NCBI RefSeq assembly: GCF_001677475.2
Contig: NZ_CP015229.1
Length of the DNA stretch: 64,000 bases
Origin: Escherichia coli
GTDB taxonomy: Bacteria > Pseudomonadota > Gammaproteobacteria > Enterobacterales > Enterobacteriaceae
Reading direction: 5' to 3' (one strand)
Below the pieces are notes generated by a model. That model was not told the origin of the DNA. It saw only the letters and a list, made by a program, of their open reading frames with translations, and ran no database searches. How positions within the stretch are numbered: the stretch's first letter is position 1; each line of letters starts with the position of its first letter. The translations under genes and the position numbers were made by a program. Of the stretch, positions 30,561 through 55,457 are shown one piece after another.

Positions 30561-31349
30561 TCATTTCAGCGTACAATCGCCACATTGCTGCACATCCGGT
30601 AAGCGATAACGCTGGCAGCAAGTGCGGCGCACCAGCAGGCCGTCGCGCAGTACCACGGTACGCCAGAGTGGATTATCATCACCGTTCGTGAGCGTTTTCT
30701 CAAAAAAGAGGGCATGGCGCAGCGATTCAACAGTAGCCTCGCCGAGCAGTTGCTTCATCTCAGTGAGATACCAGTTGATCAAATAACCGGTATTACTCCA
30801 GATAAGTTTGCCGTTGATCTCTCCGGTCGCTTCTAGTGCTTGCACAACCGGAACCAGCGCCTGGCTGATTAACGTTTCCATTCGATGCTGCGGCGAATGT
30901 GGTGTTGCGTTTTTATCTTCACACACATCGACCCAGAAACAGGCGACGCGTCCGGTTTCGTGAAACTCAGCATGGAAATGTTCCGGCGACACATCTAATG
31001 CTTTTTCCTGCGTCAGTAGCGCCAGCATTAATGGTGGCACCATCAGGCCGATATACCATTGTGCCCATAGTGAGATCAGCGGTTTGTTCTCGCGGATCAT
31101 CGTTGGTTGGTTGCGATAGATATGATCGGAATAGACCGCGAGTAGAGAACTTAGCGCATTCGGTGATGACCATTGCGCCAGCGTCATGGCGTTAAGCGGA
31201 GCGGGTTCATCCAGGCGGATAAACTCCAGCAAATGTTCACGATGTTCGGCGATCGTCGCCCGTACGGCTTGTGCAAGCCCAGCATCCTGCGGCTGGAGAT
31301 GCGTTCGCCAGATAACATCTTCATAGAGCGGTGCGGAACGATAGGCCAT
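30561..31349 (-). CDS. fhuF: Ferric-siderophore reductase FhuF (2Fe-2S)
   Basis: ORF track 262 aa; C-terminal cysteine cluster RRTCCQRYRLPDVQQCGDCTLK. Confidence 0.9.
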   Translation of the reverse strand: MAYRSAPLYEDVIWRTHLQPQDAGLAQAVRATIAEHREHLLEFIRLDEPAPLNAMTLAQWSSPNALSSLLAVYSDHIYRNQPTMIRENKPLISLWAQWYIGLMVPPLMLALLTQEKALDVSPEHFHAEFHETGRVACFWVDVCEDKNATPHSPQHRMETLISQALVPVVQALEATGEINGKLIWSNTGYLINWYLTEMKQLLGEATVESLRHALFFEKTLTNGDDNPLWRTVVLRDGLLVRRTCCQRYRLPDVQQCGDCTLK

Positions 31350-31489: not shown

Positions 31490-31726
31490 ATGTTGCAACG
31501 TACGCTGGGCAGTGGCTGGGGAGTGTTGCTGCCGGGATTGCTGATTGCAGGGCTGATGTATGCGGATTTATCGCCGGATCAATGGCGGATTATCATTCTG
31601 ATGGGATTAGTATTGACGCCGGTGATGCTGTATCACAAACAGTTGCGGCATTACGTTTTGCTGCCATCGTGCCTGGCGCTTATTGCTGGCGTCATGCTGA
31701 TGATGATGAATTTGAAGCAGGGATGA
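31490..31726 (+). CDS. yjjZ: Small inner-membrane protein YjjZ (78 aa)
   Basis: ORF track 31379..31726; ATG at 31490 gives MLQRTLGSGWGVLLPGLLIAGLMYADL... Confidence 0.75.
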   Translation: MLQRTLGSGWGVLLPGLLIAGLMYADLSPDQWRIIILMGLVLTPVMLYHKQLRHYVLLPSCLALIAGVMLMMMNLKQG

Positions 31727-31764
31727 TAAAACAGGGAAGCAACAAGAAAGGAAGTAAAGATAAT

Positions 31765-31851
31765 TGGTGCGAGGGGGGGGACTTGAACCCCCACGTCCGT
31801 AAGGACACTAACACCTGAAGCTAGCGCGTCTACCAATTCCGCCACCTTCGC
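31765..31851 (-). tRNA. leuV: tRNA-Leu (anticodon CAG)
   Basis: Reverse complement reads GCGAAGGTGGCGGAATTGGTAGACGCGCTAGCTTCAGGTGTTAGTGTCCTTACGGACGTGGGGGTTCAAGTCCCCCCCCTCGCACCA; encoded CCA. Confidence 0.95.
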
Positions 31852-31885
31852 ACAGTCATCTTACTTTTTTTGATATCGCCTCGTT

Positions 31886-31972
31886 TGGTGCGAGGGGGGG
31901 GACTTGAACCCCCACGTCCGTAAGAACACTAACACCTGAAGCTAGCGCGTCTACCAATTCCGCCACCTTCGC
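31886..31972 (-). tRNA. leuP: tRNA-Leu (anticodon CAG), one-base variant in variable arm
   Basis: Same 87-nt tRNA with aagaacac instead of aaggacac on plus strand. Confidence 0.95.
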
Positions 31973-32000
31973 CCAGTGCGAGCAATATCAACGTGGTTTT

Positions 32001-32087
32001 TGGTGCGAGGGGGGGGACTTGAACCCCCACGTCCGTAAGGACACTAACACCTGAAGCTAGCGCGTCTACCAATTCCGCCACCTTCGC
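32001..32087 (-). tRNA. leuQ: tRNA-Leu (anticodon CAG)
   Basis: Third tandem copy identical to the first. Confidence 0.95.
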
Positions 32088-32192
32088 ATACCGTCAATTC
32101 TTAAAAAGAATTGCTACCACGGAGGCGCATTCTAGTGGTTTTCAGCTTTTCGTCAATAGTTAATTATCGCCGGAGGTGTAATTGCTGGAAAA

Positions 32193-32387
<195 letters not shown>

Positions 32388-33419
32388 TTAACCTTTCTTC
32401 GCCTGGCGGGTCATAATGGCGCGATACACCTTGAAACGCCCGGTTTGCGCGATAACTTCGTGGAAGCCAAATGTCTCATCCAGCACGTCCGGATAAGGCA
32501 GGAAGGCGTTCGCTACAATTCGCAGCTCGCCGCCGCTATTAAGATGACGCACCGCGCCGCGAATCAGCGTTTGCGCGGCATCCAGGCTGGTTTGCATCCC
32601 ATCGTGGAACGGCGGGTTGGAGATGATCATATCAAAACGACCTTTCACCTCGGAAAAGACGTTACTGGCAAAGACTTCACCTTCAACACCGTTGGCCGCA
32701 AGTGTTGCGCGGCTGGCTTCTACCGCTGGCGCAGAGACATCGCACAGAGTGAGACGAATTTTCGGTGAATGGCGCGCAAAGGCAACCGAAAGCACGCCCG
32801 CGCCGCAGCCGACATCCAGCACTTTACCTTTCGTGTGCGGAGTTAACGTCGAGAGCAGCAACTGGCTACCGACATCCAGACCGTCGCGGCTAAACACGCC
32901 AGGCAGCGTTTTGACCGTCAGGCCATCGACGCTGTATTCGCCCCAGAATTTATCGGCATCAAACACCGGCTGTTTTTCCAGACGACCAAAATAGAGGCCA
33001 CAGCGACGGGCGCTGTCGACTTTATTCAACGGCGCATAATCTGCCAGCATCTGTTCGGCGCTGCGCACGCCGCTGCGGTTCTCGCCAACGACAAAAATAT
33101 CCGTGCCCACCGGCAGCAGAGAAAGTAAATTCATCAACTGGAACTGGGCTTCCGGTTTGTTCTTCGGCCAGTAGTAAATCAAAGTATCGCAATCTGCGAC
33201 GTCATCCGCCGTGGCGACCAGGCTAAAACGGGCGTTATCCCCCATCTGGCGGCTTAACACCTGCCAATGGTGGAATTGCTGGGTATGAGCACGGCTGGCC
33301 GCGGTATCTAAACGCGCGGGCAGGTCATCCTGTAAGTCTCCGGCAAAAAGAATACGGCTTTGTTCGAAATCATCACTGTGACGCAGCAAGACTTCACTTG
33401 CCGGGGTAAATGCAGACAT
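32388..33419 (-). CDS. rsmC: 16S rRNA (guanine1207-N2)-methyltransferase RsmC
   Basis: ORF track 343 aa; SAM-MTase motif [11 protein letters not shown] and NPPFH. Confidence 0.9.
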
Positions 33420-33521: not shown

Positions 33522-33935
33522 ATGACATCCCGACGAGACTGGCAGTTACAGCAACTGGGCATTACCCAGTGGTCGCTGCGTCGCCCTGGCGCGTTGCAGG
33601 GGGAGATTGCCATTGCGATCCCGGCACACGTCCGTCTGGTGATGGTGGCAAACGATCTTCCCGCCCTGACTGATCCTTTAGTGAGCGATGTTCTGCGCGC
33701 ATTAACCGTCAGCCCCGATCAAGTGCTGCAACTGACGCCAGAAAAAATCGCGATGCTGCCACAAGGCAGTCGCTGCAACAGCTGGCGGTTGGGTACTGAC
33801 GAACCGCTATCACTGGAAGGCGCTCAGGTGGCATCACCGGCGCTCACCGAATTACGGGCAAACCCAACGGCACGCGCCGCGTTATGGCAACAAATTTGCA
33901 CATATGAACACGATTTCTTCCCTCGAAACGACTGA
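33522..33935 (+). CDS. holD: DNA polymerase III psi subunit HolD
   Basis: ORF track 137 aa; synteny rsmC-holD-rimI. Confidence 0.9.
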   Translation: MTSRRDWQLQQLGITQWSLRRPGALQGEIAIAIPAHVRLVMVANDLPALTDPLVSDVLRALTVSPDQVLQLTPEKIAMLPQGSRCNSWRLGTDEPLSLEGAQVASPALTELRANPTARAALWQQICTYEHDFFPRND

Positions 33936-35427: not shown

Positions 35428-36663
35428 ATGGCGCTGTCTGATGCGTGGTTGCGTTCAGTCGTTGGAAAGGAACGTGATAAGGTTTTGGTTAAATCCGATC
35501 GTGATGGTCTGTCTGTCAGAGTATCACCGAAAGGTCGCGTAGTGTTCCAATATCGTTATCAATGGGCAGGGAAAGGTGAGCGCCTTGATATCGGAACTTA
35601 CCCGGCAACTGGATTAAAAGAGGCCAGAGAAGAAGTTATCCGTCTCCGTGGTGAACTCGAGTCAAACCGCAATCCACGATTAGTCAAGCAGGCTGAAAAA
35701 CGAAAAGCTACTGAAGCCATGACGGTAGAGTCTGTGATCCGTGCCTGGTATGAAGCATATTGTGTAAAAAATAAAAAAGGTTCTGAACAGATACTCCGCT
35801 CGTTTGAGCTGCACCTGTTCTCTAAAATCGGGAATATCCCTCACGATGCAGCTACATTGCATGATTGGTTAGAAGTCCTGGAGCCTCTTAGCACCAAGAC
35901 TCCAGCAATAGTAGACCGATTGCTAATTAACGCAAAGCAGGCTCATGTCTGGGCGTATAAGAGAAAGCTCATTGAAACTCGCCCACTGTCGGATATCACG
36001 GGTAAAGATATGGATATCCGTAAAGGTCAGAAAAAACGGTTTCTGACACATGATGAAATTAACATCCTTTATGCTGCGATCGATGGTTCTCGAATGGTTC
36101 CTAAATACCGAGCCTTCATTAAACTATTGCTGCATTTTGGTTGCCGTAGTTCAGAGCTAATTACTGCTAGGGTGGATGATTTTGATTTCATAAATAAGGT
36201 ATGGACTGTACCACCAGAACGACATAAGACTGGGGACATAACAGGCGAACCGCTAAAGCGGCCCATTATTGAACCGGTTGAAGAGCTTATAAAATACGTT
36301 ATCTCTATGAACAACGGTTCCGATATGCTTTTTACTAAGGAAGGAAGCAGGGAGCCAGTTGGTCGGACATCATTGCAGTCGCTGCCTTACAATTTAATGC
36401 AGTTCGCATGGCGACGTTTGGGGTATCAATTTCCTCATTGGTCTCTTCATGATTTGAGACGAACAGCACGAACAAACTTTTCTGATCTTACTGCTCCTCA
36501 TATTGCTGAAATAATGCTTGGTCATAAACTGCCAGGTGTATGGCAAGTTTATGATAAGAGCGATTATCTAGAAGAACAGCGTAAAGCTTACTGGGCATGG
36601 TGGGAGAGGGTTGAATCGATCGTTACTTGTACTGACTTAATCTCCAACGGACAGTTTGCGTAG
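35428..36663 (+). CDS. int: Phage tyrosine integrase
   Basis: ORF track 411 aa; C-terminal catalytic region with HDLRRTARTN and LGH..VYD motifs; RBS AAGGTGAG. Confidence 0.85.
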   Translation: MALSDAWLRSVVGKERDKVLVKSDRDGLSVRVSPKGRVVFQYRYQWAGKGERLDIGTYPATGLKEAREEVIRLRGELESNRNPRLVKQAEKRKATEAMTVESVIRAWYEAYCVKNKKGSEQILRSFELHLFSKIGNIPHDAATLHDWLEVLEPLSTKTPAIVDRLLINAKQAHVWAYKRKLIETRPLSDITGKDMDIRKGQKKRFLTHDEINILYAAIDGSRMVPKYRAFIKLLLHFGCRSSELITARVDDFDFINKVWTVPPERHKTGDITGEPLKRPIIEPVEELIKYVISMNNGSDMLFTKEGSREPVGRTSLQSLPYNLMQFAWRRLGYQFPHWSLHDLRRTARTNFSDLTAPHIAEIMLGHKLPGVWQVYDKSDYLEEQRKAYWAWWERVESIVTCTDLISNGQFA

Positions 36664-42952: not shown

Positions 42953-43229
42953 TTCTGCCATTCCGGGACGTTACACTGTTCAGGCACCTTATAAAACGGG
43001 TGCCGGGCGTGGAAACCCGGAATTCACCAAAGCGCACAACCGCGCTCTTGCGGTTTTTTTGTGTCATGAGCAGCATTACGCCCAAATTATGGTGGGGCGT
43101 GCAGGGCCAACTTCGGTTGGGCCGGGTTCTTTGGTGACCGGTATTTCCACCCCTGTACGTCTCACCACCAATAAGGTCGTGGAAAGCCTTGGTGGTGAGT
43201 TATTAAAAATCACCAAAGAGGCTGCCATC

Positions 43230-51294: not shown

Positions 51295-51594
51295 AAAAAT
51301 TCCTTAATACTGATAACTTGGCGCACTATACACACGTTCCTGAAGAAAGCTATAGTTTTTTGATGGGGTTGAAGATGGCTGGATGTCTAAAATAAACATT
51401 GCTTCATATGTTCAACTATGCGTTAATGATTGCGTCGGTTTGAAGAACAGACGATATACGAAGTAGTTTACTAAAGCAGTTCTCATTTCAGGTGTTATTC
51501 ACTTATTCCTTCTTTGAGTCTCTCCAATTAAGTACGAAGTCGTTTCTGTTATACAAGCCATTTATGCCGAAAGGCTCAAGTTAAGGAATGTAGA

Positions 51595-51810
51595 ATGTCA
51601 AATAAAATGACTGGTTTAGTAAAATGGTTTAACGCTGATAAAGGTTTTGGCTTTATTTCTCCTGTTGATGGTAGTAAAGATGTGTTTGTGCATTTTTCTG
51701 CGATTCAGAATGATAATTTTCGAACCTTATTTGAAGGTCAAAAGGTTACCTTCTCTGTAGAGAGTGGTGCTAAAGGTCCTGCAGCAGCAAATGTCATAAT
51801 TACTGATTAA
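51595..51810 (+). CDS. cspB: Cold-shock protein, CspB-like
   Basis: ORF track 71 aa; [38 protein letters not shown]; divergent from cspF as in Qin. Confidence 0.85.
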
Positions 51811-52093
51811 AATTAATAGTTTGTCTGTATACGATAACGAAGAAGGCTGATGCCTGAGTGGAGATACAGACAGAGTGGTGAATATTGGATCTCTTTAATA
51901 AATAGTAAGGAGATCCAATACATGAAACAATGGCCAGCATATTTGGCAATAACTTAATCAGGAAAAGTATGCTAACCATTGTGGTGAAGTGCAGGTTTGC
52001 TGCATGAATAGTTTTACAGCAGAAGCTAACTGCTAGCATAGCAAAACAAAGTGCGTAAGTGGATGACTCCCACAAAAAGCACCACAATATTAA

Positions 52094-54683: not shown

Positions 54684-55045
54684 ATTAATATTAAATCGGA
54701 TTATTTTTAGCGCTGAATGTGAAATTTAAATAAAAAGGACTCTTCCATGAGTCAAAATCCTTGAAATCTTAAGGGTAAGATAAAAGGTCATTAGACAGAA
54801 TGACACGTTTTATTAATAAATAAAGCTATTGTTTCATTCGTGTGTTTTTCTTTACAAAAGTAATCCTTGCTATGGTTGGTTAATCATGCGTTAATGGTGT
54901 TCTGGTTTGTTACAAAATTATCTGAAGCAGTCATTGTTATAATTTTATTATTTGTACCTCTTGAGATTTCCTTGTTGGTTTTTCTCTCTGATATTTTTTT
55001 CGGACCATTCTGCCCAAGGGCTAACTTCTTCAAAAGGTAATAATG

Positions 55046-55258
55046 ATGTCTAACAAAATGACTGGTTTAGTGAAATGGTTTAACCCTGAAAAAGGTTTTG
55101 GTTTCATCACGCCGAAAGATGGTAGCAAAGATGTGTTTGTCCATTTCTCAGCTATTCAGAGCAACGATTTCAAAACGTTAACTGAGAATCAGGAAGTCGA
55201 ATTTGGTATTGAGAACGGACCTAAAGGCCCCGCGGCTGTTCATGTTGTGGCACTTTGA
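55046..55258 (+). CDS. cspI: Cold-shock protein, CspI-like
   Basis: ORF track 55043..55258; [45 protein letters not shown]. Confidence 0.85.
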
Positions 55259-55457
55259 GGTAGAAAATATTACAAACCATATTCACTTTAGATGCCCGTG
55301 TTGCCATGGTTCTCAGTATAGAACATCATCTTTTGATGTTTCTGACAGGAATCCTTTCGGGGCAAAATGTATCTTTTGTAAATCAATGATGATTACATTT
55401 GATAATATTTCACAATACTTAAATGTTAGCCGTCTGTCGTTAGATTTAAGAAAGTGA
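55242..55457 (+). CDS. Hypothetical small zinc-ribbon protein overlapping cspI 3' end
   Basis: ORF track 55203..55457; internal Met gives [26 protein letters not shown]...CIFCKS. Confidence 0.3.

What the first reader, a model, noticed from the sequence alone, without database searches (positions are those of the whole stretch)
31765..32087. Tandem tRNA-Leu(CAG) triplet with a single-base variant in the middle copy
Three 87-nt tRNA-Leu genes are separated by 34- and 28-bp spacers. The middle copy has A instead of G at one plus-strand position in the variable arm. This may be normal leuP heterogeneity or a strain-specific substitution.
Basis: seen in the sequence. Interest (0 to 1): 0.15.

Follow-up and report, generated by a model that had tools for sequence, protein, structure and literature searches.

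The report
Standard E. coli leuQPV tRNA operon
This is the well-known three-gene leucine-tRNA operon of E. coli, and the one-base difference in its middle gene is the normal, reference-genome state of leuP, shared by most E. coli and many related genera, so it is ordinary.

Summary
Three 87-nt tRNA-Leu(CAG) genes lie on the minus strand at 31765-31851, 31886-31972 and 32001-32087, with spacers of 34 and 28 bp. The only difference is at 31925 (+ strand A, versus G at 31804 and 32040).

The locus is the leuQ-leuP-leuV operon between yjjZ and rsmC.

- About 4,526 of 5,426 complete E. coli genomes carry exactly this allele with the same leuQ-leuP spacer.
- Two papers already treat leuP as the one tRNA-Leu(CAG) gene that differs, by a single variable-loop nucleotide.
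- The change (tRNA position 48, C to U) turns a C-G pair of the variable-arm stem into a G.U wobble, so pairing is kept.
- The C-T-C order recurs in at least 12 enterobacterial genera, so the difference is old.
- Within E. coli, rare homogenised arrays (C-C-C, or T in leuQ) and one- or two-copy arrays show occasional recombination between copies.

Verdict: already known and ordinary, with very low interest. One weak open point remains: whether the U48 form persists through selection or simply through inheritance.

The parts
32151..32156 (-). -35 hexamer TTGACG of the leu operon promoter
   Evidence: Consensus scan, 10 of 12 matches with a 16-nt spacer. Identical in K-12 and conserved in 18 enterobacterial leaders. 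Promoter function is inferred from this identity and not tested here.
32129..32134 (-). -10 hexamer TAGAAT, followed by the G+C-rich discriminator GCGCCTCC (32121-32128)
   Evidence: The discriminator is invariant in all 18 leaders compared. Its role in stringent and growth-rate control is general knowledge of stable-RNA promoters and was not tested here.
32088..32128 (-). 5' leader region between the -10 hexamer and the mature leuQ 5' end. It contains a hairpin at 32095-32113 and a window-specific C (K-12 has T) at -6 from leuQ (32093).
   Evidence: Sequence. The hairpin shows compensatory changes in 13 leaders. The transcription start was not mapped here.
32001..32087 (-). leuQ: promoter-proximal tRNA-Leu(CAG), 87 nt, C at position 48
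   Evidence: ARAGORN, Rfam, identical to K-12 leuQ.
31973..32000 (-). 28-nt leuQ-leuP spacer AAAACCACGTTGATATTGCTCGCACTGG
   Evidence: Identical to K-12. There is no U directly after the CCA, as Mohanty and Kushner noted for this RNase P-processed operon (PMC2190699).
31886..31972 (-). leuP: middle tRNA-Leu(CAG), 87 nt, U at position 48
   Evidence: Identical to K-12 leuP.
31925..31925 (-). The variant base: + strand A, which is T/U at tRNA position 48. It pairs with G55 as a G.U wobble in the variable-arm stem.
   Evidence: The variable-arm hairpin weakens from -5.2 to -2.3 kcal/mol, and the constrained cloverleaf from -33.2 to -30.3 kcal/mol.
31852..31885 (-). 34-nt leuP-leuV spacer AACGAGGCGATATCAAAAAAAGTAAGATGACTGT
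   Evidence: Identical to K-12. It contains an A7 run. Some E. coli genomes match this stretch with a 1-nt gap, and the A run is shorter in other genera.
31765..31851 (-). leuV: promoter-distal tRNA-Leu(CAG), 87 nt, C at position 48
   Evidence: Identical to K-12 leuV.
31727..31764 (-). 38-bp region downstream of leuV, running up to the stop codon of the convergent yjjZ gene. It has no intrinsic terminator on the minus strand.
   Evidence: The terminator scan found none on the minus strand. This fits the Rho-dependent termination proposed in PMC2190699. The yjjZ ORF ends at 31726.

Best explanation
The feature is the chromosomal leuQ-leuP-leuV operon of an E. coli-type genome. It lies between yjjZ (convergent) and rsmC, and it encodes three copies of tRNA-Leu(CAG), which reads CUG.

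Shown here: the three genes, both spacers, the leader (apart from one base at -6) and the promoter hexamers are identical to K-12 MG1655. The single difference between the copies, U instead of C at tRNA position 48 of the middle gene, is the reference state of leuP. It replaces a C-G pair with a G.U wobble in the variable-arm stem.

Taken from the literature on K-12 or inferred: the operon is transcribed from a strong sigma-70 promoter (TTGACG, 16 nt, TAGAAT, then the GC-rich discriminator GCGCCTCC) as one precursor. RNase P alone separates the precursor into pre-tRNAs. Transcription ends Rho-dependently, and PNPase and RNase II remove the 3' trailer (PMC2190699).

The U48 allele is an old, inherited feature of the middle gene, found in the same position in many enterobacterial genera. 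It is most likely close to neutral. Occasional recombination between the tandem copies erases it, spreads it or reduces the copy number in a minority of E. coli lineages.
For: Gene calls. Single difference. K-12 annotation leuV/leuP/leuQ between yjjZ and rsmC. Alignment showing K-12 and SMS-3-5 with the same T in the middle copy. No mismatch to K-12 between 31741 and 32092.

Population: 4,526 of 5,426 genomes match the leuQ-leuP spacer plus leuP(1-65) with T exactly. Only about 111 match the C version (564 minus 453 partial-only records).

[quoted passage not shown] A tRNA-seq reference set lists (leuP) apart from (leuQ leuT leuV) (bioRxiv 10.1101/2020.02.21.958157). Processing and termination: PMC2190699.

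Age: 33 of 36 three-copy arrays that contain a T are C-T-C, across at least 12 genera. The spacers and leader are orthologous.

Exchange between copies in E. coli: C-C-C in O55:H7, two copies in XH993, one copy in O157:H7 Z1723, and T in leuQ in about 56 genomes.
Against: Nothing contradicts the identification. There are limits.
- Transcription, processing and aminoacylation were not tested for this strain and are carried over from K-12 on the basis of sequence identity.
- The population counts are derived from BLAST identity bands, so they are approximate. About 339 genomes with a spacer mismatch were not resolved for the allele.
- Some database alleles may be assembly errors. One example is the MG1655-derived assembly NZ_CP025268.1, which has C-C-C and a 9-C run.
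- Near-neutrality of U48 is an inference.
Confidence: 0.97

Rival explanations
1. The A at 31925 is a strain-specific new substitution, or a sequencing or assembly error, in one copy of an otherwise homogeneous triplet.
For: Database errors at this locus may exist: NZ_CP025268.1 has an 88-nt third gene.
Against: The same base is present in K-12 MG1655 and SMS-3-5, in about 83% of 5,426 complete E. coli genomes, and in the middle copy of arrays from at least 12 other genera. It is also described in the literature.
Confidence: 0.01
2. The U48 isodecoder is functionally distinct and is kept in the middle gene by selection, not by inheritance alone. The difference could lie in processing kinetics, modification, stability, tRNA-fragment production or interaction with LeuRS or EF-Tu.
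For: C-T-C is kept in 33 of 36 three-copy arrays that contain a T, across at least 12 genera. Over the same span, the 40 nt downstream of the operon have diverged to 50-78% identity in the non-Escherichia genera. In many genera the leuT-type copy in the argX-hisR-leuT-proM operon also carries T, so both forms coexist widely.
Against: - Ascertainment: only loci containing a T were retrieved, and the scan was truncated.
- Several species yielded only the leuT-type T locus and no T-bearing array, for example K. pneumoniae, E. cloacae and E. whittamii.
- In E. coli the T is lost (about 111 genomes) or spread to leuQ (about 56 genomes), roughly the 2:1 ratio expected from two C donors and one T donor.
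- Some arrays collapse to one or two copies without a T.
- The change keeps the base pair as G.U.
- From general knowledge, not tested here: E. coli LeuRS does not rely on the long variable arm for identity.
- The whole operon, spacers included, is so conserved that persistence of one more site is not remarkable.
Confidence: 0.1
3. The middle copy is a decaying or non-functional duplicate.
For: The variable-arm hairpin is weaker by 2.9 kcal/mol.
Against: The Rfam score is identical to that of the other copies. All other 86 positions are intact. The copy is conserved across genera with no further changes. Mohanty and Kushner treat leuP transcripts as part of the normal tRNA-Leu1 supply.
Confidence: 0.01

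Closest known systems
E. coli K-12 MG1655 leuQ-leuP-leuV operon (b4370, b4369, b4368; NC_000913.3 4606079-4606401)
   Same: Same flanking genes (yjjZ and rsmC), same strand arrangement, same three 87-nt genes, same 28- and 34-nt spacers, same promoter hexamers and discriminator, and the same T at leuP position 48. The window is 100% identical over 31741-32092.
   Different: One leader base at -6 from leuQ (window 32093). There are scattered differences in yjjZ and upstream of the -35 hexamer, and the REP-element content between the promoter and rsmC differs.
leuT in the argX-hisR-leuT-proM operon
   Same: The same tRNA-Leu(CAG) sequence. In K-12 it is identical to leuQ and leuV, with C48.
   Different: It sits at another locus, outside the window, in a mixed tRNA operon that is RNase E-dependent according to PMC2190699. 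In many other genera this copy carries T48.
valV-valW operon of E. coli
   Same: According to PMC2190699, both are polycistronic tRNA operons whose precursors are separated by RNase P without RNase E, and both end Rho-dependently.
   Different: It has two valine tRNA genes and lies at a different locus. It was not examined here.

Membership tests
tRNA-Leu(CAG), class II (long variable arm) bacterial tRNA | Cloverleaf recognised by tRNA detectors, with anticodon CAG | tested here: met
   ARAGORN calls three tRNA-Leu with anticodon cag. Rfam RF00005 scores each at 48.5 bits against a gathering score of 29.
tRNA-Leu(CAG), class II (long variable arm) bacterial tRNA | Long variable arm forming its own stem-loop | tested here: met
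   A 4-bp stem (positions 46-49 with 54-57) and a 4-nt loop fold in all three copies. The middle copy has U48.G55 in place of C48-G55.
tRNA-Leu(CAG), class II (long variable arm) bacterial tRNA | Encoded 3' CCA and discriminator A73 | tested here: met
   All three copies end in ...CUCGC-A-CCA.
tRNA-Leu(CAG), class II (long variable arm) bacterial tRNA | Aminoacylated with leucine and used in translation | not testable with these tools
   Carried over from K-12 on the basis of sequence identity.
E. coli leuQ-leuP-leuV operon | Three tandem tRNA-Leu(CAG) genes between yjjZ and rsmC, on the strand opposite to yjjZ | tested here: met
   K-12 and SMS-3-5 annotations, the syntenic locus L006, and window ORFs for yjjZ (ends at 31726) and rsmC (32388-33419).
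E. coli leuQ-leuP-leuV operon | Middle gene (leuP) differs from leuQ and leuV by one variable-arm nucleotide | tested here: met
   Stated in PMC12472396 and implied by the gene grouping in bioRxiv 10.1101/2020.02.21.958157.
E. coli leuQ-leuP-leuV operon | Single upstream sigma-70 promoter with a GC-rich discriminator | tested here: met
   TTGACG, 16 nt, TAGAAT, then GCGCCTCC at 32156-32121 on the minus strand. Identical to K-12. This is a sequence-level test only.
E. coli leuQ-leuP-leuV operon | RNase P-only separation of the precursor and Rho-dependent termination | not testable with these tools
   The sequence correlates are present: there is no U after the CCA of leuQ (CCAAAAACC) or leuP (CCAAACGAG), and no intrinsic terminator on the minus strand. 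The mechanism itself comes from PMC2190699.

The most novel reading that the evidence does not exclude
The U48 isodecoder has been held in the middle gene of the array (C-T-C) since before the enterobacterial genera diverged because it does something the C48 form does not. Candidate roles are a distinct processing or turnover rate, or a distinct set of tRNA-derived fragments. On this reading the difference is not merely an inherited neutral variant.
Probability: 0.08. Interest if true: 0.3.

Novelty: already known. Interest (0 to 1): 0.03.

Why it matters
It matters little. The result removes a candidate from the scan, because the variant is the textbook state of leuP in the K-12 reference and in most E. 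coli.

There are two small practical points. First, tRNA-Leu(CAG) arrays at this locus vary among E. coli genomes: alleles get homogenised and copy number ranges from 1 to 3. Second, some assemblies may carry errors here. Differences at this locus should therefore not be over-read in comparative work.

The long persistence of the C-T-C order across genera is a mild curiosity about how tandem tRNA genes escape homogenisation.

Tried and rejected
- Unconstrained RNAfold of the three copies did not return a cloverleaf and gave unremarkable z-scores. This is usual for unmodified tRNA sequences, so I evaluated an explicit cloverleaf instead.
- The first population query, anchored on the leuP-leuV spacer, was confounded by spacer polymorphism: 1,459 of the 4,841 matching genomes were non-exact for reasons unrelated to position 48. 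I replaced it with paired T and C queries anchored on the leuQ-leuP spacer.
- A literature search for 'leuV promoter' returned nothing useful. The promoter assignment therefore rests on the consensus scan and on identity to K-12.
- Part of one script failed on a file name. The K-12 comparison it printed before failing is the part used here.
- I considered and rejected three readings: a strain-specific mutation, a sequencing error and a decaying pseudogene copy (see the rival explanations).

Full report
**Observation.** ARAGORN reports exactly three tRNA genes in the 64-kb window. All are tRNA-Leu(CAG) on the minus strand, at 31765-31851, 31886-31972 and 32001-32087. Rfam's tRNA model matches each at 48.5 bits, against a gathering score of 29. 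Each gene is 87 nt and ends in an encoded CCA. The spacers are 34 bp (31852-31885) and 28 bp (31973-32000). The three copies differ in one column only, tRNA position 48: T in the middle copy and C in the outer two. On the + strand this is A at 31925 versus G at 31804 and 32040.

**What it is.** The 651 bp around the genes match 5,405 of 5,426 complete E. coli genomes over at least 80% of their length, and the features annotated there are yjjZ and three tRNA-Leu genes. In K-12 MG1655 the corresponding genes are leuV, leuP and leuQ (b4368-b4370), between yjjZ and rsmC. The same order is present in SMS-3-5 and in a 49-kb syntenic stretch of strain 1504D004 that is collinear with window 8000-56999. 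The window ORFs agree: fhuF at 30561-31349 (-), yjjZ ending at 31726 (+), rsmC at 32388-33419 (-) and holD at 33522-33935 (+). Because the operon is read on the minus strand, the copy at 32001-32087 is leuQ (promoter-proximal), 31886-31972 is leuP, and 31765-31851 is leuV.

**The decisive comparison.** It is. In the alignment of the window with K-12 and SMS-3-5, all three have T at position 48 of the middle gene and C in the other two. The three genes and both spacers are identical in all three sequences. A base-by-base comparison with K-12 shows no mismatch anywhere between 31741 and 32092. K-12 leuT, the fourth tRNA-Leu(CAG) gene at another locus, has C. In K-12, therefore, leuP is the only U48 copy.

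This is stated in the literature. [quoted passage not shown] A tRNA-seq study lists (leuP) separately from (leuQ leuT leuV) as distinct reference sequences (bioRxiv 10.1101/2020.02.21.958157).

**Population frequency.** A 93-nt query made of the leuQ-leuP spacer plus leuP positions 1-65, taken from the window, matches exactly in 4,526 records, about 83% of the 5,426 genomes.
- The same query with C at position 48 gives 564 records in the top identity band. Of these, 453 have no full-length match and score 100% only on the tRNA part. About 111 genomes, roughly 2%, therefore have C in the middle copy next to the same spacer.
- About 339 further genomes have a full-length match with another mismatch. 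Their allele at position 48 was not resolved.
- About 450 genomes lack this junction altogether.
- O55:H7 RM12579 has three copies, all C. XH993 has two copies, both C. O157:H7 Z1723 has a single C copy between rsmC and yjjZ.
- In the other direction, a query with T placed in leuQ matches exactly in about 56 genomes (61 minus 5 partial-only records).

The array therefore undergoes occasional homogenisation in both directions, and occasional copy loss, as expected for tandem repeats. The window's C-T-C state is the majority state.

One caution applies. An MG1655-derived assembly (NZ_CP025268.1) shows C-C-C and also a 9-C run that makes the third gene 88 nt. The C8 run of these genes is a documented indel hotspot in mismatch-repair-defective lines (PMC8510543). 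Assembly error is equally possible, so a few database alleles may not be real.

**Structure.** In an explicit class II cloverleaf, position 48 pairs with G55 as the third pair of the 4-bp variable-arm stem. C48-G55 becomes U48.G55. The isolated hairpin weakens from -5.2 to -2.3 kcal/mol, and the constrained cloverleaf from -33.2 to -30.3 kcal/mol. Unconstrained folding did not recover the cloverleaf and is uninformative. All copies, like K-12, have an A.C opposition at acceptor positions 5 and 79. From general knowledge, not tested here, E. coli LeuRS does not depend on the long variable arm for identity, so a wobble in that stem is expected to be tolerated.

**How the operon works.** Upstream of leuQ on the minus strand lies TTGACG, a 16-nt spacer and TAGAAT (32156-32129), followed by GCGCCTCC. 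This stretch is identical in K-12. The hexamers and the discriminator are invariant in 18 enterobacterial leaders. No intrinsic terminator is found on the minus strand after leuV.

Three points come from Mohanty and Kushner (PMC2190699). The leuQ leuP leuV precursor is separated into pre-tRNAs by RNase P, independently of RNase E. There is no U directly after the CCA of leuQ (CCAAAAACC) or leuP (CCAAACGAG), and the window has exactly these sequences. Termination appears to be Rho-dependent, with PNPase and RNase II removing the trailer. I carry these steps over to the window on the basis of sequence identity. They were not tested here.

- The loci come from Escherichia (coli, albertii, whittamii and an unnamed species), Salmonella enterica subsp. 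arizonae, Citrobacter, Klebsiella, Raoultella, Enterobacter, Kosakonia, Phytobacter, Pseudocitrobacter, Proteus, Morganella, Xenorhabdus, Photorhabdus and others.
- Of 36 three-copy arrays that contain a T, 33 are C-T-C, two are C-C-T and one is T-T-C. The C-T-C arrays come from at least 12 genera.
- The arrays are orthologous. In the 17 other arrays compared, the first spacer is 82-100% identical to the window and the second is 65-100% identical.
- The 40 nt downstream of the operon fall to 50-78% identity in the non-Escherichia genera.
- Twelve solitary T copies were checked. Ten lie in argX-hisR-leuT-proM-type operons, one of them cut off before tRNA-Arg by the end of the fetched locus. The Proteus and Photorhabdus loci do not.

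The U48 form is therefore old and widespread, and its place in the middle gene is inherited.

Whether selection keeps it there cannot be decided from these data, for four reasons. The scan sees only T-bearing loci and was truncated. Several species yielded only the leuT-type T locus. The E. coli data show losses and spreads at roughly the 2:1 ratio expected from donor numbers. The entire operon is so conserved that one more conserved site is not striking. I put the selected, functionally distinct reading at about 0.1.

**Comparison with known and novelty.** The locus meets every sequence-level criterion for the K-12 leuQPV operon, and the variant is the known leuP difference. It is already known.

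**Other things seen.**
- The 5' leader carries a hairpin (32095-32113) that keeps pairing through compensatory changes across genera. The window has an unusual C at -6 from leuQ (32093).
- REP-type elements fill the gap between the promoter and rsmC, with an Rfam naRNA4 match at 32227-32309.
- A lambdoid prophage sits beside yjjG at a prfC 5' fragment and runs from about 35.1 kb to beyond 57 kb. It carries the isrK, C4 and cspA-thermoregulator Rfam matches.

Noticed in passing
window 32088-32128 (hairpin 32095-32113; SNP at 32093), minus strand: The 5' leader of the leu operon contains an 8-bp hairpin (CAATTCTT-TTT-AAGAATTG). It is kept in 13 enterobacterial leaders, with changes on both sides at three pairs (for example AU to UA in 6 of 13). 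The window has C instead of T at -6 from leuQ, unlike K-12 and SMS-3-5. No complete E. coli genome matched the 651-bp region at 100%; the best was 99.2%.
   Followed up: partly
L003, L004, L005 (E. coli O157:H7 Z1723, O55:H7 RM12579, XH993); The leu array is polymorphic among E. coli genomes. C-C-C occurs in about 111 genomes, T in leuQ in about 56, and two-copy and single-copy arrays also exist. About 450 genomes lack the leuQ-leuP junction. This points to recurrent gene conversion or unequal crossing-over between the tandem copies.
   Followed up: partly
L007-L126 (genome-contig scan); The C-T-C order of position-48 alleles is conserved in 33 of 36 T-bearing three-copy arrays from at least 12 enterobacterial genera. 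In many genera the leuT-type copy in argX-hisR-leuT-proM carries T, whereas K-12 leuT carries C. Morganellaceae have two-copy T/C arrays.
   Followed up: partly
L128 (NZ_CP025268.1, MG1655-derived assembly): This K-12 assembly shows C in leuP and a 9-C run that makes the third gene 88 nt. It is either a laboratory mutation at the documented C8 indel hotspot (PMC8510543) or an assembly error. Either way, it is a caution for allele counts taken from databases.
   Followed up: no
window 32200-32385: REP/BIME-type palindromic elements lie between the leu promoter and rsmC, with an Rfam naRNA4 (CssrE) match at 32227-32309 (73 bits). The window has about 38 bp (32229-32266) that are unaligned relative to strain 1504D004, and the region also differs from K-12.
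   Followed up: no
window about 35130 to beyond 57000: A lambdoid prophage is inserted after yjjG at a truncated prfC 5' fragment. By transfer from L006 it carries an integrase (about 35428-36663), yfdR/yfdQ/yfdP-like genes, Rha, an antiterminator, a lysis cassette, and cspF/cspB/cspI-type cold-shock genes. Rfam matches are isrK (42984-43060), C4 antisense RNA (43085-43172) and two cspA thermoregulators (51434-51873 and 54889-55304). Only 330 of 5,426 genomes cover at least 80% of window 20000-44999.
   Followed up: partly
window 8000-32228 versus 32267-56999: Identity to strain 1504D004 is 98.1% on the fhuF/yjjZ/leu side of the REP region but 99.75% on the rsmC and prophage side. This suggests a recombination boundary near the REP elements.
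   Followed up: no
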